DNA of 64,000 bases from Octopus vulgaris (Eukaryota), in the NCBI GenBank assembly GCA_951406725.2, contig OX597830.1, forward strand, positions 48,174,001 to 48,238,000, given 5' to 3'. The notes below the pieces were generated by a model. The model was not told the DNA's origin. It did no database searches and saw nothing but the letters and a program-made list of their open reading frames with translations. The position numbers and the translations under genes are program-made. Below are positions 5,835-27,500 of the stretch, piece after piece (position 1 is the first letter of the stretch; every line of letters starts with the position of its first letter).

Positions 5835-6796
5835 TGTCTCCATACTTGGTCGGCACAGATCTTCTCAACTGATAAAAATGGGTTTTATATTCTCTTATTA
5901 GCATCCTCTCTGTTGAGTCTTCTTCGTATAAAATACAGCTTGGACTTATCGTTCTGTTCACGAAGGATTTACATGCAGAAGTTTCAAAACAACTCTTCGA
6001 ACAGTTGAAGGCATCCACGTCAAATGTCATCAATGTTTTGGCATCTTTCAGACCGGCGTCTGGTACTTTCATAAAATACTTCAGATATTCAACTGTAACA
6101 AAGCCAGGCAAATTAAACAACCAAAATACGAAGACGAAAATAAAACATTGTGAAAATAGATAATAATAAAGATAGAAAATATTAAATGTTTGAGGATCAG
6201 CATTGATATTTTTACCAGGAAGAAGTGACAGAGTTGTTACTACCATAGTGTAGGTACAAAGCATCTTGGGATATATAATCTGTTTAATGAAAATGACTGC
6301 GAATGAGTCTTTAATGTTGTTTAATTAATTCTATTATTTAAATGATTCACAAGTTATATACTATAATGTTTAACAGTTGTCTGTTATAAAGAATGTCCCC
6401 TAATACCAGCCCTTTGTTTTATTTAACAAAATGCTTACAAACTGACGTAAAACTGAATTATCACCAATGGAAATTATGTTAAGAATCGAATTCTTCATAA
6501 TACGAGATTTATCTTGAGTTTTCTTTTCATCTAATTTACTTAGAGAAGGAAAATATTTTCCTCCACTGAACTTATAAATTAATGTTTTGAGTAGTGATTT
6601 TCATAATTTTCATAGATATATGTCTATATATTGATATAAATTTACTTACGTCCATTTCCAAATGTCAGTGAGATGTAGAAGAGAACTGCAACGAAAATTT
6701 ATTTTGGAAAAAAATTTCATATTTCATATTCACGTTTAGCATTAATTTACAAAGAATGAAGATGAAAGGAATAAGAATGAGAAGTGCTACAAGCAT
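5835..6796 (-). CDS. Copy A, 5' part of paralog: exons 1-3, complement(6751-6796, 6650-6685, 5835-6092); remaining exons expected left of the window
   Basis: Reverse-complement homolog of copy B exons 1-3 with the same lengths and intact splice sites. The PAN-1 motif lies in ORF 5821..6264. Confidence 0.8.
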
Positions 6797-7910
6797 AATT
6801 CAGTAACAAATACGGTGATGACCACCACTACATCACCATAAAATTATCCATTGAAATAATGAGTGAGAGCGACAAATTGGAGAGGGATAGAAAGAGAGGG
6901 AACATAAGAGAGAGGGATAGGAGTGAGAGTGAGATAAAAAGAGAGAGGAGCAAAAATAGAAAAAGAGAAAGAAAGAAAAAGAAATGTTATTTGTTTCAAA
7001 CGAGATCAGAAGCATCAGTATTTCTTGGAAGAGAACATTCTAGACACTTCAGAGACTTTAGTGAAAGTATTACGTATAACTTGTTCGTACAATTAACCAC
7101 TTTTTATAAAGGCGATTCACCACTTTTATAACGGGTTGATTCTATCTTATTTATAGAGCGATTATTCTCCTGAGTAGACTTTTCTAAGTTCACGTCGGCT
7201 TGTCACCAATATATAAGGTTGTGTTGGATAATCTGGTGTAGAATGTTTTTGACTTGGAAAAGATAATAAATATAGATGTTTACTGAGTAGAAATCTATAG
7301 TGATAAACCGGTCACTTATAACTTAACTATAAGTGTTATCACTATACATAAATCTTAACTCAGGCTGCGTAAACACTGTGATGAATTATACACCAAGACG
7401 CTGAAATGTACATGTTGAAAGGTCACCGCTATAATAACAGTTTCATGGATACAGAAATAAATCTCATTAACAGGTTGAAGAAAATGAAGAAAGAGAAACT
7501 ATTTACTAAATTAGTTTAATTACGTACATTTAATATTTACAGTACATTTAGAAGTCAAAGAAAATTGTCGTAGAGAGTTACGACATAAAATTTATATTAA
7601 CTAATTCTTCCATACGAAACTAGCAGAGTTTTACACAACGATTCAAAATAGTCCTGTTGGATTTAAGTAATAGAGATGGCATAAAAATAGCCAATATCTC
7701 AAGAGCGGGAGTGTCGTGGAAATGAAGGACAACCAACGAACACTGAGGGTGAGTGTCGTGGAATATAGTGACAACCAACGCTCCCTGATTAATTTTTATC
7801 TCACTGGACAAGGGATAGGCCTAGTTCAGAAGATTTAGGTCATGTTAATATTCACCCATTTTATATATATATATGTATGTATATATATATATATATATAT
7901 ATATATATAT

Positions 7911-24480: not shown

Positions 24481-24526
24481 ATGCTTGTAGCACTTCTCAT
24501 TCTTATTCCTTTCATCTTCATTCTTT
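24481..24526 (+). CDS. Copy B putative exon 1 (signal peptide, MLVALLILIPFIFIL)
   Basis: ATG followed by 15 mostly hydrophobic codons and a phase-1 GTAAAT donor. The donor is weak and the following intron is only 65 nt. Identical in copy A. Confidence 0.5.
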
Positions 24527-27500
24527 GTAAATTAATGTTAAACGTGAATATGAAATATGAAATTTTTTTCCAAAATAAATTTTCATTGCAGTTCTCTTCT
24601 ACATCTCACTGACATTTGGAAATGGACGTAAGTAAATTTATATCAATATATAGACATATATCTATGAAAATTATGAAAATCACTACTCAAAACTTTAATT
24701 TATAAGTTCAGTGGAGGAAAATATTTTCCTTTCCTAAGTAAATTAGATGAAAAGAAAACTCAAGATAAATCTCGTATTATGACGAATTCAATTCTTAACA
24801 TAATTTCCATTGGTGATAATTCAGTTTTCCGTCAGTTTGTAAGCATTTTGTTAAATAAAACAAAGGGCTGGTATCAGGGGACATTCTTTACAACAAACAA
24901 CCGTTAAACATTATAGTATATAATATGTGAATCATTTAAATAATAGAATTAATTAAACAACATTTAAGACTCATTCGTAATCATTTTCATTAAACAGATT
25001 ATTTATCCCAAGATGCTTTGTACCTACACTATGGTAGTAACAACTCTATCACTTCTTCCTGGTAACAATATCAATGCTGATCCTCAAACATTTAATATTT
25101 TCTATCTTTATTATTATCTATTTTCACAATGTTTTATTTTCGTCTTCGTATTTTGGTTGTTTAATTTGCCTGACTTTGTTACAGTTGAATATCTGAAGTA
25201 TTTTATGAAAGTACCAAAATGTGCTCTGAAAGACGGTAATACATTGATGACACTTGACGTGGATGCCTTCAACTGTTCGAAGAGTTGTTTAGAAACTTCT
25301 GCATGTAAATCCTTCGTGAACAGAACGATAAGTCCAAGCTGTATTTTATACGAAGAAGACTCAACAGAGAGGATGCTAATAAGTGAATATAATACCCATT
25401 TTTATCAGTTGAGAAGATCTGTGCCGACCAAGAATGGAGACGGTAAACAAATTTGAATCTTTTTGTGTTTATTTTATTCCTTGACTTGTATTCTATGTTT
25501 TAGTCGAAAGAGAGACAATACTGTCGGCATTTGAAAATTGTCTGCGATTTCTCTGGTCGATGTAGATTAGAGTGTGTTGGAAAATAATTGTTTGTAGAGT
25601 TTTCATTCCGGAGAGTTAAAGTTCTAATAAAGTTTTTAGTGATGTGTTTAGCAGAAAATTTAGAAACGGATTGAGACACAAGATTACCGAGGAGGAAAGA
25701 GAAAATGTAAAGTTTTATAAGACCGTTTTGTCATGTGACTAACAGAGAAGATTCTCAATATATTTGTTGATGAAAATAATGCATGTCTGGTGTGTAATAT
25801 TTGTGTATGGATAACATCTGTCTGTGAGGGAGACGAAAAGGGATCTTATAAGAAAACAGAATATGATATGCGTTTTTAAAATTACGCACAATAATTACAC
25901 AAGATGCTTAACTGAATGTGTAACTCATATTTTGTTTTTTTAAATATAAATCGAAGAAAATGGGGAAAAAAGTAGGGTAACTTACTCACAAATGAATGAA
26001 AACCCTCAAACTGGATCAAAACAGAATTGCCCACAATCCTGAGTAACACTCTATATTTCTCTCTCTCTCTCTCTCTCTCTCTCTCTCTCTCTCTCTCTCT
26101 CCCTTTTTCTATATCTCTTCTTCTCTTTCTTTCTCTTTCTCGCTTCCTCATTCATTCTCTCTCCCCTCTCCATTCTCTCTCTTCTCTTTCTCTACTATAT
26201 CTGTCATTCATGTCCAGAGTGCCCCAGAAAGATTTACCCGTGTGTAAAACACTGCCTAATGAATATCGGTTAAGGTAATATCTACATTTAACGTAAATAT
26301 TTGCTTATGTCTTTTGTTCATGTGTCTATTGCTTCGTTCGTCTAAAACTGGTTTGCAAACAAACATGGCGTCGAAAGTAAAAACATGACGAGATTGTCGC
26401 TTTTGAGCAGCTATAGTGAGCAACGATGACATAACAAAACAGTTGAATGTGTGTCGTAAAACAGTGTTCAATACCTGGAAACAATATATGGAGTCCGCTA
26501 CAAGCTCTAGCAAGCCAATTCCTGGTAGGAAGCGAACAATTGAAATGTGGACGCTGTGAAGAAAGGAATGAACGGAAATACCCGCAGGATGCAAGAAAAG
26601 CTGCAAAAGCTCTCTTAATATTTCGAAATCGTCAATGAACAGGATTTTTAAAGTGGATTTAAAACTTGCTGCAAAAAAGAAACAATCCAAGCGGTCAATT
26701 TCAGCAACATCCAAGAAGAAACGTCTCGACAGGGGTAAAACTATGTTAGCTGAGATGAAGCGTGCCACTAACAAAGTGCTGATATGATTCGATGAGAAAC
26801 TATTCACCGCGGAGGCAGTTTCCAATAGAATGACAGGCTTTATGCACATAATGCAGGGGACTTGCCCGACGGTAACAGGATTCATATACGCCATCTCATA
26901 GTGTGGGTTACAAATGCATCAGATGGATCCAAGCCTCCATTGATCTTCATCGATTCTTGGTGTCAAGGATAACAGTGAAGTTTATTTTGAAATGTTGGAT
27001 GAGATAGTGTTGCCCTGGATCACAGAAACAGTTGGTGACCGTTACACCTTCACTCTAGACAGGGCTCCGGCCCACACATCCAATTTGAGACAGAAGTGGT
27101 TTAAAGAGCATTTCAACGGTTTCGGAGATAAGAAAATATGGCCTCTCCTAAGTCTGGACGTCAATCCCATGGACTTTGCAATTTGGGGTATCTGAGAGAG
27201 CAATGTTTCTGCACGTTCCTATTCAAATGTGTCAGAGCTCAAGAGAGATCTTCTGTCTTTATGGGTCAATTTCTTAATTGCTTTTTTTTCCATTTCTGTA
27301 CATATCATTATGTCTTCTTGGGCTTCTATATTTCTCAACGTATCTTGGATTTCATGCAGCCAATTCGCTTCATCATTGAATATTTACCTGATTATTCTGG
27401 CCTTGCCAAAGAGGCAAACCTTTTGTTACAGTTCTACTGTGCCCTTTTTCCAATGTCTTTTATACTTCTCAAGGTGCCTTCTGATAATGTCTCCAACGAC

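What the first reader, a model, noticed from the sequence alone, without database searches (positions are those of the whole stretch)
5835..25442. Invariant signal exons but 10:1 replacement-to-silent changes in PAN domain 1
Exons 1 and 2 are identical between copies A and B. Exon 3 (5835-6092 vs 25185-25442) differs in 10 amino-acid-changing codons and one silent codon by hand count. Half of the changes cluster in one patch (DAGLKDAK vs KCALKDGN). The same N-terminal region is also the most variable part of PAN2 and PAN3. A conserved leader with a variable mature region is independent support for selection.
Basis: partly seen in the sequence, partly recalled or inferred. Interest (0 to 1): 0.7.

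Follow-up and report, generated by a model that had tools for sequence, protein, structure and literature searches.

The report
Octopus secreted three-PAN protein repertoire
These two look-alike exons belong to an undescribed octopus family of at least 25 gene copies for predicted secreted proteins; the pair alone shows no selection, but across the family the first two domains, above all the middle one, carry an excess of amino-acid changes at a few sites, likely giving the animal a set of proteins that grip different targets.

Summary
The 10:1 codon count is right but is not evidence by itself: by nucleotide it is 12 replacement to 3 silent steps, dN/dS 1.1-1.5, p 0.57. Exon 1 is not identical: A has Gln8Arg and an AT where 11 of 12 neighbours have the GT donor, so A may be crippled. 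The clustered patch is made of blocks shared in mosaic among paralogs, i.e. recombination (PHI p 0.0005). The wider idea survives: the genome holds at least 25 copies of a signal + 3xPAN gene, spliced in RNA-like runs. Site models find a class with omega about 4 in PAN1 (LRT 49) and PAN2 (LRT 98), none in PAN3. This survives multi-hit, rate variation and partitioning; null simulations with conversion reached the observed value in 1 of 31 (PAN1) and 0 of 25 (PAN2). PAN2, not PAN1, is the hypervariable domain (A/B: 30 of 76 residues). Ligand and tissue are unknown; immune-type recognition is my best guess. The scan noted this family before in another genome (e1-8806698).

The parts
13332..13362 (-). 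Copy A exon 1 (start codon, first half of signal peptide); codon 8 Arg; the following donor (13331-13330) reads AT, not GT
   Evidence: position also seen as the difference to other copies
6650..6685 (-). Copy A exon 2 (36 nt, second half of signal peptide), identical to B
5835..6092 (-). Copy A exon 3 = PAN1; exons 4-6 of A lie left of the window (G000:C17:48169828-48170052, 48160125-48160310)
21458..21488 (+). Copy B exon 1 coding part (31 nt, GT donor)
   Evidence: exon-1-like loose end joined to exon 2 in run X9; same N-terminus in P0001
24592..24627 (+). Copy B exon 2 (36 nt), invariant in 14 of 14 copies of the 48-Mb cluster
   Evidence: joint 24627>25185, GT..AG, in runs X1 and X9
24998..25061 (+). 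AG..GT-bounded open stretch that looks like a leader exon but is intron: 63/64/65 nt among copies and skipped by the RNA-like contigs
25185..25442 (+). Copy B exon 3 = PAN1; selected-class codons 10, 11, 13, 17, 27, 29, 63, 66-68
34622..34852 (+). Copy B exon 4 = PAN2, the hypervariable domain; selected-class codons 14, 15, 20, 32, 45, 48, 50, 52, 61, 62, 64, 66, 69
39185..39280 (+). Copy B exon 5 (linker with one Cys), conserved
39782..39972 (+). Copy B exon 6 = C-terminal PAN3 (ends soon after the fourth core Cys) and stop; purifying selection
54010..54240 (-). Copy C exon 4 (PAN2); 29 residues differ from B, 1 from A
   Evidence: ends derived from locus L036
49883..49978 (-). Copy C exon 5
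   Evidence: locus L071
49189..49379 (-). Copy C exon 6 (PAN3); C's exons 1-3 lie right of the window (exon 3 at G000:C17:48238036-48238290)
5184..26112 (.). Inverted duplication holding the 5' halves of A and B head to head (5184-7910 vs 26112-23381 at 94%; 11643-15527 vs 23096-18400 at 88-93%)
30596..58271 (.). Inverted duplication holding the 3' halves of B and C tail to tail (90-95%)

Best explanation
The two exons are first-domain exons of a tandem family of at least 25 Octopus gene copies for predicted secreted proteins (signal peptide + three PAN/apple domains), in which PAN1 and above all PAN2 carry a minority of fast-changing codons, likely under positive selection, while the leader and PAN3 are kept alike, so that the products likely form a repertoire of binders for varied outside ligands, most likely microbial or parasite surfaces. 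Shown: copy number, exon structure, splicing in relatives, domain identity, recombination in PAN1, the unequal divergence of the domains. Inferred from models: omega > 1 at about a fifth of PAN1/PAN2 codons. Inferred from fold knowledge: in PAN2 the fast sites 45, 50 and 52 flank the Cys that faces the helix and alternate along predicted strands (50/52, 62/64/66), so they likely line the open face of the sheet, the face apple domains are recalled to bind with. How it evolves: whole-gene duplication in both orientations makes copies; conversion between copies reshuffles short PAN1 blocks and keeps introns and the leader alike; PAN2 stays deeply different; some copies decay (A's donor, an orphan 3' half). 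The A/B difference in PAN1 is mostly two old blocks brought together by such shuffling. The immune role is a guess: no tissue or ligand was seen.
For: 25 PAN1, 26 PAN2, 30 PAN3 exon matches on one contig, none with an internal stop. Splice 24627>25185 and exon 1/exon 4 loose ends in RNA-like runs of 2 studies, several different copies in run X9. Named Octopus proteins have the same layout. M1a/M2a: PAN1 LRT 49.0 (25 copies; omega2 4.1, 17.5% of sites) and 26.5 (14 copies); PAN2 97.9 and 33.8; PAN3 1.3 and 0.0. With double/triple hits plus site-rate variation: PAN1 16.5 and 15.7, PAN2 25.9; with separate trees for 2-3 segments 7.7-34 (PAN1) and 11.9-72 (PAN2); in the 16 copies with an intact exon 1-4: 11.0-29.7 and 16.3-66.9, PAN3 0; PAN1 still 6.7-13.6 with both patches removed. 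Null simulations with conversion: 0 of 56 reached the plain PAN1 value in 14 copies (max 18.4); harsh null 1 of 31 for PAN1, 0 of 25 for PAN2 (max 9.0 vs 27.8). Silent sites are not unusually slow (piS 0.05-0.057 vs upstream intron 0.037). Differences of two O. bimaculoides proteins from their nearest copy fall on the PAN1 fast sites (11 of 20 vs 18 of 149, p 4e-5). PAN2 exon differs 20% between B and C where most of 12 kb around it differs 1-9%. PAN2 folds as PAN/apple (pLDDT 64-80; Z 8.2-8.4, rmsd 2.3-2.9 A over 75-79 residues to plasminogen/HGF; best Foldseek hits SML-2 lectin and factor XI).
Against: Averaged over codons, dN/dS is near 1 and its interval includes 1 for both domains (tree-free 1.0-1.3; pairwise 0.85-1.45), so the case rests on site-mixture models of my own coding (only the M0 likelihood was checked against IQ-TREE; branch lengths scaled, not re-optimised; naive empirical Bayes). 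Exon 3 recombines (PHI p 0.0005) and heavy conversion inflated the plain test (8 of 14 runs above 5.99 at the highest rate); under the harshest null PAN1 is only borderline (1 of 31). In PAN2 silent sites are also deeply diverged (piS 0.25-0.29 in 14 copies) and the introns beyond 200 nt upstream are too, so part of its divergence is age. The simulated PAN2 sets were somewhat less diverged than the real one (0.20-0.32 vs 0.32). The O. bimaculoides enrichment is not significant for PAN2 (9 of 26 vs 28 of 125, p 0.14). Fast sites of PAN1 and PAN2 do not coincide beyond chance in cysteine register (circular-shift p 0.44-0.71); PAN1's hairpin is conserved where PAN2's is fastest. Position 54, a Lys in the SML-2 lectin, is Ser in at least 90% of copies. 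9 of 25 models lack a sound exon 1 in what I fetched. No tissue, protein or ligand data.
Confidence: 0.62

Rival explanations
1. No positive selection: relaxed constraint on surface residues of redundant copies, with gene conversion, multi-base changes and rate hot spots mimicking omega > 1; many copies are drifting or dead.
For: Mean dN/dS about 1; PHI p 0.0005 in exon 3; double-hit rate above zero and LRT falls from 49 to 7.7 under the strictest partitioned model; A's donor, 5 of 25 models without exon 1 found, a broken orphan; PAN2 silent sites old.
Against: No stop or frameshift in any of 25 PAN1 and 25 PAN2 exons over tree lengths of 3.3 and 10.6 changes per codon; PAN2 shows no recombination over all copies (PHI p 0.41-0.74) and 0 of 25 harsh nulls came near; PAN3 in the same genes, with the same pipeline, gives nothing.
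Confidence: 0.2
2. Selected repertoire, but for prey capture: a salivary-gland (venom or saliva) family whose PAN domains bind prey proteins, as the leech anti-platelet protein does.
For: Signal + Cys-rich modules, invariant leader exon and fast mature part is the pattern recalled for venom peptide families; the leech anti-platelet protein is among the fold matches (Z 6.3).
Against: No enzyme or known toxin domain; no paper linking octopus salivary gland or venom with PAN/apple in the library (2 hits, the one read was irrelevant); tissue unknown.
Confidence: 0.08
3. Selected repertoire for reproduction or chemical signalling (sperm/egg coat recognition, egg-coating or skin secretions), like rodent Esp/Mup/Abp clusters.
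For: Tandem secreted families under positive selection are typical of such systems (PMC3477143, search listing only); PAN domains sit in plant S-locus receptors and ZP-type coat proteins.
Against: Older copies are nearly unchanged between this genome and O. sinensis (0-1 differences in PAN1+PAN2 for P0007, P0008, P0009, P0016), which does not look like species-specific recognition; tissue unknown.
Confidence: 0.1

Closest known systems
Uncharacterised Octopus 'Apple domain-containing' gene models (O. sinensis XP_036366243.1, XP_036366256.1, XP_036354797.1; O. bimaculoides XP_014769852.1; O. vulgaris CAI9735246.1)
   Same: Same family: 62-85% identical to PAN1 of B, same signal + 3 PAN layout. 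All 11 hits of a full-length search are Octopus.
   Different: Only automatic names; several models are fused or truncated; none of the 9 hits matches B's PAN1 above 85%, so the young 14-copy cluster is barely annotated. No paper found for six of their identifiers.
Apicomplexan apple-domain lectins (Sarcocystis SML-2, Toxoplasma MIC4)
   Same: Secreted proteins built only of PAN/apple repeats; best sequence (E 7e-7, 1e-5) and Foldseek (E 1e-4) matches for PAN2.
   Different: 14-18% identity; the Lys at the end of the hairpin (SML-2 chain 59; MIC4 K469 is needed for binding, PMC6608980, passages read) is Ser in the octopus copies; the MIC4 numbering link is recalled; sugar binding untested.
Factor XI / prekallikrein apple domains, plasminogen and HGF N domains
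   Same: Same fold (Z 7.6-8.4); non-enzymatic binding modules.
   Different: No protease or kringle; single-copy conserved genes, not a diversified array.
Diversified secreted recognition families of molluscs (bivalve C1qDC; gastropod FREPs, recalled)
   Same: Tandem expansion of secreted lectin-like binders (PMC6835236, listing and start of abstract).
   Different: Other scaffolds; there the immune role has data, here none.

Membership tests
PAN/apple domain (PF00024 clan) | Pfam match above the curated cut-off | tested here: met
   PAN_1 26.0, 33.3, 21.8 bits vs cut-off 21.4 for the three exons
PAN/apple domain (PF00024 clan) | Core C-x3-C-x5-C-xn-C cysteines | tested here: met
   PAN1 30/34/40/52 invariant in 25 of 25; PAN2 33/39/51 invariant, 29 in 24 of 25; PAN3 36/40/46/56 invariant
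PAN/apple domain (PF00024 clan) | Helix on a five-stranded sheet | tested here: inconclusive
   Met for PAN2 (pLDDT 64-80, Z 8.2-8.4); PAN1 gave no usable model (pLDDT 40 alone, under 45 in the full protein); PAN3 pLDDT about 50
Galactose-binding apple lectins (SML-2, MIC4-A5) | Lys at the end of the hairpin strand | tested here: not met
   Aligned position 54 is Ser in at least 90% of PAN2 copies against Lys in SML-2
Galactose-binding apple lectins (SML-2, MIC4-A5) | Sugar binding | not testable with these tools
   Needs glycan array
Secreted multigene family under diversifying selection | Many intact, transcribed copies with signal peptide | tested here: met
   16 of 25 models with sound exons 1-4 and 6; spliced RNA-like contigs in 2 of 4 runs laid; which copies are expressed is not shown
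Secreted multigene family under diversifying selection | Site class with omega > 1 robust to recombination | tested here: met
   PAN2: 0 of 25 harsh nulls; PAN1 borderline, 1 of 31; PAN3 none
Secreted multigene family under diversifying selection | Leader more conserved than mature part | tested here: met
   Exon 2: 0 of 36 columns variable in 14 copies vs 100 of 498 in intron 2 (p 3e-4); exon 1: 5 of 31 variable in 12 copies, so only exon 2 stands out
Cephalopod venom proteins | Expression in salivary gland or activity on prey | not testable with these tools
   Runs carry no tissue label
Mollusc immune recognition proteins | Haemocyte/epithelial expression, induction, microbe binding | not testable with these tools
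   Runs carry no tissue label

The most novel reading that the evidence does not exclude
Octopus has evolved its own germ-line 'variable binder' library on a PAN/apple scaffold: a constant leader and C-terminal domain, a deeply diversified middle domain whose open sheet face is the binding site, and a first domain whose two loops are recombined between copies by gene conversion, serving innate immune recognition in an animal for which no such repertoire is described.
Probability: 0.25. Interest if true: 0.75.

Novelty: new variant of a known kind. Interest (0 to 1): 0.45.

Why it matters
Cephalopod recognition molecules are poorly known, and this family is present in databases only as uncharacterised, often mis-joined models. 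A lineage-restricted array with domain-specific selection gives a short list of residues and copies to test for binding, and a PAN-only diversified repertoire was not found in the papers searched. The evolutionary pattern itself (tandem secreted family, conserved leader, selected mature part) is familiar, and the finding as first stated overrates one pair of copies.

Tried and rejected
Leader model using the 64-nt stretch 24998-25061 as exon 2: rejected, length varies 63-65 nt and RNA-like contigs skip it. Pairwise A/B test: not significant. Whether A's AT donor is real or an assembly error: contigs of three DNA-like runs were laid, inconclusive. No RNA holder listed as RNA on record; run X6 gave no contig, X2 only pieces that include intron. 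Exon 1 of two cluster copies (L003, L012) not found in the 10-kb stretches fetched, which reach only about 4 kb and 8.5 kb upstream of exon 2. Literature: octopus + PAN domain, cephalopod + apple/PAN variants (31), octopus + salivary gland + apple + PAN + venom (53), octopus + apple domain (73), six gene identifiers (76), O. vulgaris + selection terms (37): nothing on this family. Marchant 2012 and Wong 2016 (apple-domain binding sites) are not held, so the binding-face statement is recalled; PMC6899681, PMC9795894, PMC8247436 passages did not list pocket residues. No supplements were read; octopus transcriptome or proteome tables could hold the tissue. ESM Atlas and the 50% representatives gave only generic PAN proteins. 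Complex prediction not used: no partner is claimed.
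Full report
What is at the coordinates. The window (38% G+C, rich in simple repeats) holds parts of three copies of one gene: A (- strand), B (+ strand, complete) and C (- strand). A and B lie head to head in an inverted duplication, B and C tail to tail. The two stretches named are 258-nt phase-1 exons, each a PAN domain. They differ at 16 nucleotides; 10 whole codons change the residue, 1 is silent, and the split last codon differs too. The hand count is therefore right.

Why the pair proves nothing. Two of the replacement codons contain silent steps, so by nucleotide the exon has 12 replacement and 3 silent differences on 199 and 56 sites: dN/dS 1.12, 1.34 or 1.48 for kappa 1, 2, 3; Fisher p 0.57. 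Because about 78% of sites are replacement sites, even 10:1 has p 0.27. A and B differ by 3-4% in the introns upstream of the exon, 6.2% in it and 8.6% just downstream. The clustering is real (10 of 16 differences in 24 nt, p about 1e-5), but both halves of the patch are blocks that recur in other copies in mixed combinations, some also in the older clusters, and exon 3 fails the PHI test (p 0.0005 in 14 and in 25 copies). The patch is best read as old variants reshuffled by conversion.

Gene structure. My first leader model used a 64-nt AG..GT stretch at 24998-25061; it varies 63-65 nt among copies and is skipped by contigs of 2 of the 4 RNA-like runs laid (two studies), which join 24627 to 25185 and continue upstream into exon-1-like and downstream into exon-4-like sequence (the runs are only guessed to be RNA, are from relatives or other copies, and carry no tissue label). 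The gene is exon 1 (21458-21488), exon 2 (24592-24627), PAN1, PAN2 (34622-34852), a linker (39185-39280) and PAN3 (39782-39972); named Octopus proteins have this layout and the same signal-like N-terminus. Exon 2 is identical in A and B and in all 14 copies of the local cluster (0 of 36 columns variable against 100 of 498 in intron 2). Exon 1 is not identical: codon 8 is Gln in B, Arg in A, and A's donor reads AT where the other 11 of 12 cluster copies with an exon 1 have GT. A is thus possibly unable to splice its leader; an assembly error is not excluded. C is 98-99% identical to A in its exons and has GT.

The family. The genome holds 25 PAN1 matches (of 28 hits; 3 weak ones dropped), 26 PAN2 (of 27) and 30 PAN3 (of 30), all on the window's contig, in clusters at 44.8, 47.9-48.4, 57.0-57.2 and 68.7 Mb, none with an internal stop; these are lower bounds. 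I paired them by position into 25 models, 14 in the young cluster round the window. 16 have sound exons 1-4 and 6; for 5 no exon 1 was found, for 3 the candidate was out of frame or wrong, and 1 is A; exon 5 was not in the fetched flank for 5. A full-length search of 5.8 billion proteins gave 11 hits, all Octopus.

Selection tests. No codeml or HyPhy was on hand; I coded the models, checked M0 against IQ-TREE (-1738.37 vs -1738.39), scaled rather than re-optimised branch lengths and used naive empirical Bayes. PAN1: M0 omega 1.26; M1a/M2a LRT 49.0, omega2 4.1 at 17.5% of sites (25 copies) and 26.5 (14 copies); M8a/M8 agree. PAN2: LRT 97.9 and 33.8, omega2 3.5-4.1 at 23-24%. PAN3: 1.3 and 0.0, M0 0.72 and 0.55. 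With double/triple hits and site-rate variation PAN1 gives 16.5 and 15.7, PAN2 25.9. With separate trees per segment PAN1 gives 7.7-34.1, PAN2 11.9-72.3. In the 16 sound models 11.0-29.7 and 16.3-66.9, PAN3 0; in the 11 older copies 6.3-21.4 and 7.6-42.1, PAN3 1.0-6.3. Masking a possible compensated frameshift at codons 66-68 in four copies leaves 17.9-42.7; removing both patches 6.7-13.6. Simulated without selection but with conversion, 0 of 56 sets reached the plain 14-copy PAN1 value of 26.5, though the highest was 18.4 and heavy conversion passed the 5% bar in 8 of 14. Under a harsher null with multi-hits, rate variation and conversion, 1 of 31 reached PAN1's 19.4 and 0 of 25 reached PAN2's 27.8 (maximum 9.0). 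Against this, averages over all codons are near 1: pairwise 1.16-1.45 for PAN1, 0.85-1.28 for PAN2, 0.40-0.58 for PAN3; tree-free 1.17-1.31, 0.99-1.12 and 0.64-0.74, all intervals including 1. So: strong constraint on a core, a free majority, and a fast minority; firm for PAN2, probable for PAN1, absent for PAN3.

PAN2 is the variable domain. A and B differ in 10 of 85 residues in PAN1, 30 of 76 in PAN2, 2 in the linker and 6 of 59 in PAN3; intron 2 differs by 3.4%. Between B and C, inside the window, exon 4 differs by 19.7% while 250-nt bins over 12 kb differ by 1-9%, apart from the exon-4 bins, a microsatellite bin and the bins at exon 6 (11-12%). In the young cluster the median difference is 22% in the exon, 4-12% in the first 200 nt downstream and 8-14% in the first 250 nt upstream, rising further out. 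Silent sites in the exon are diverged too (0.25-0.29), so PAN2 variants are old and have escaped the homogenisation seen around them.

Are the patches equivalent? All three domains share the C-x3-C-x5-C core without gaps. In that register the top windows of PAN1 (62-69, 10-17) match two of the top three of PAN2 (62-69, 8-15); PAN2 adds the hairpin 45-52, which is conserved in PAN1; PAN3's top window (2-9) lies 14 positions further upstream and the domain ends before the C-terminal patch. Site-level overlap is not beyond chance.

Structure and likely function. AlphaFold2 on nine named family members modelled only PAN2 with confidence; it matches plasminogen, HGF, factor XI and kallikrein apple domains (Z 7.6-8.4) and the parasite lectins SML-2 and MIC4. 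On its secondary structure the fast sites 50/52 and 64/66 alternate along strands, and 45, 50, 52 flank the Cys that by the usual PAN disulfide pattern (established knowledge, recalled) faces the helix; they would line the open face of the sheet. That apple domains bind peptides and sugars on this face is recalled; the two papers that would show it are not held. The lectins' Lys is replaced by Ser, so galactose binding of the MIC4 type is not predicted. There is no enzyme, membrane anchor or toxin domain. A secreted, multi-copy, surface-diversified binder points to a variable outside partner; I put microbes or parasites first because older copies are almost unchanged between this genome and O. 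sinensis, which fits a kept repertoire better than species-specific mating signals, but this is inference and those species are close.

What is known. No paper on the family was found in seven searches (open-access full texts only, no supplements read). Papers seen: PMC6608980, PMC8247436, PMC6899681, PMC9795894, PMC6409789 (passages); PMC6835236, PMC3477143, PMC9249922 (listing and start of abstract). It differs in calling the outer domains alike: here PAN1 also shows a weaker signal.

Verdict. Observation partly confirmed, interpretation partly supported for other reasons than those given; a real, undescribed, lineage-restricted family with a familiar evolutionary pattern on an unusual scaffold. 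Interest 0.45.

Noticed in passing
window 34622-34852 vs L030 (G000:C17:47968033-47968236): A copy 240 kb away has a PAN2 exon 99.5% identical to B's but with a 15-nt in-frame deletion, while its PAN3 exon differs from B's by 10.7%: recent exon-scale conversion or shuffling.
   Followed up: partly
L053, L054 (G000:C17:48041609, 47940872): Two copies inside the young cluster carry a very distant PAN2 type (39% identity to B) behind a young-type PAN1; O. sinensis P0001 has the same type and differs from it at 7 of 74 PAN2 residues but 1 of 85 in PAN1.
   Followed up: partly
L119 (G000:C17:48385000-48394900): Orphan 3' half of a copy: disrupted PAN2 exon, partial exon 5, PAN3 exon without the usual stop context.
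   Followed up: partly
L065/L082 and L083/L077: In two copies the last exon is duplicated in tandem 760 nt apart with identical sequence.
   Followed up: no
L098, L099, L107-L111, L113 (44.83-44.92 and 68.70-68.71 Mb): Extra exon-1-like copies, several per gene or with no PAN1 exon matched nearby; the 44.8 and 68.7 Mb sets look like duplicates of each other; further PAN2 and PAN3 exons without a matched PAN1 lie at 68.67-68.68 and 79.2 Mb.
   Followed up: no
window 25220-25222 and 39832-39834: Cysteines outside the core come and go: PAN1 residue 12 is Cys, Ala or Gly among copies (Ala in A and C, Cys in B), and B alone has Cys at PAN3 residue 17.
   Followed up: no
window 19220-19606: 129-codon open frame that reads like a retroelement reverse-transcriptase fragment between A and B (label by eye, not tested).
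   Followed up: no
window 26310-34224 and its copies 1688-5203, 54651-63406: Intron 3 is filled with decayed transposon-like sequence (DDE-transposase-like and LINE-like pieces by eye) shared by A, B and C, plus a low-complexity Thr/Pro-rich stretch at 31464-31931.
   Followed up: no
window 1-5799 vs 58195-64000: Direct repeat at 95%: A and C are the most recent pair (intron 2 differs by 0.9%).
   Followed up: yes
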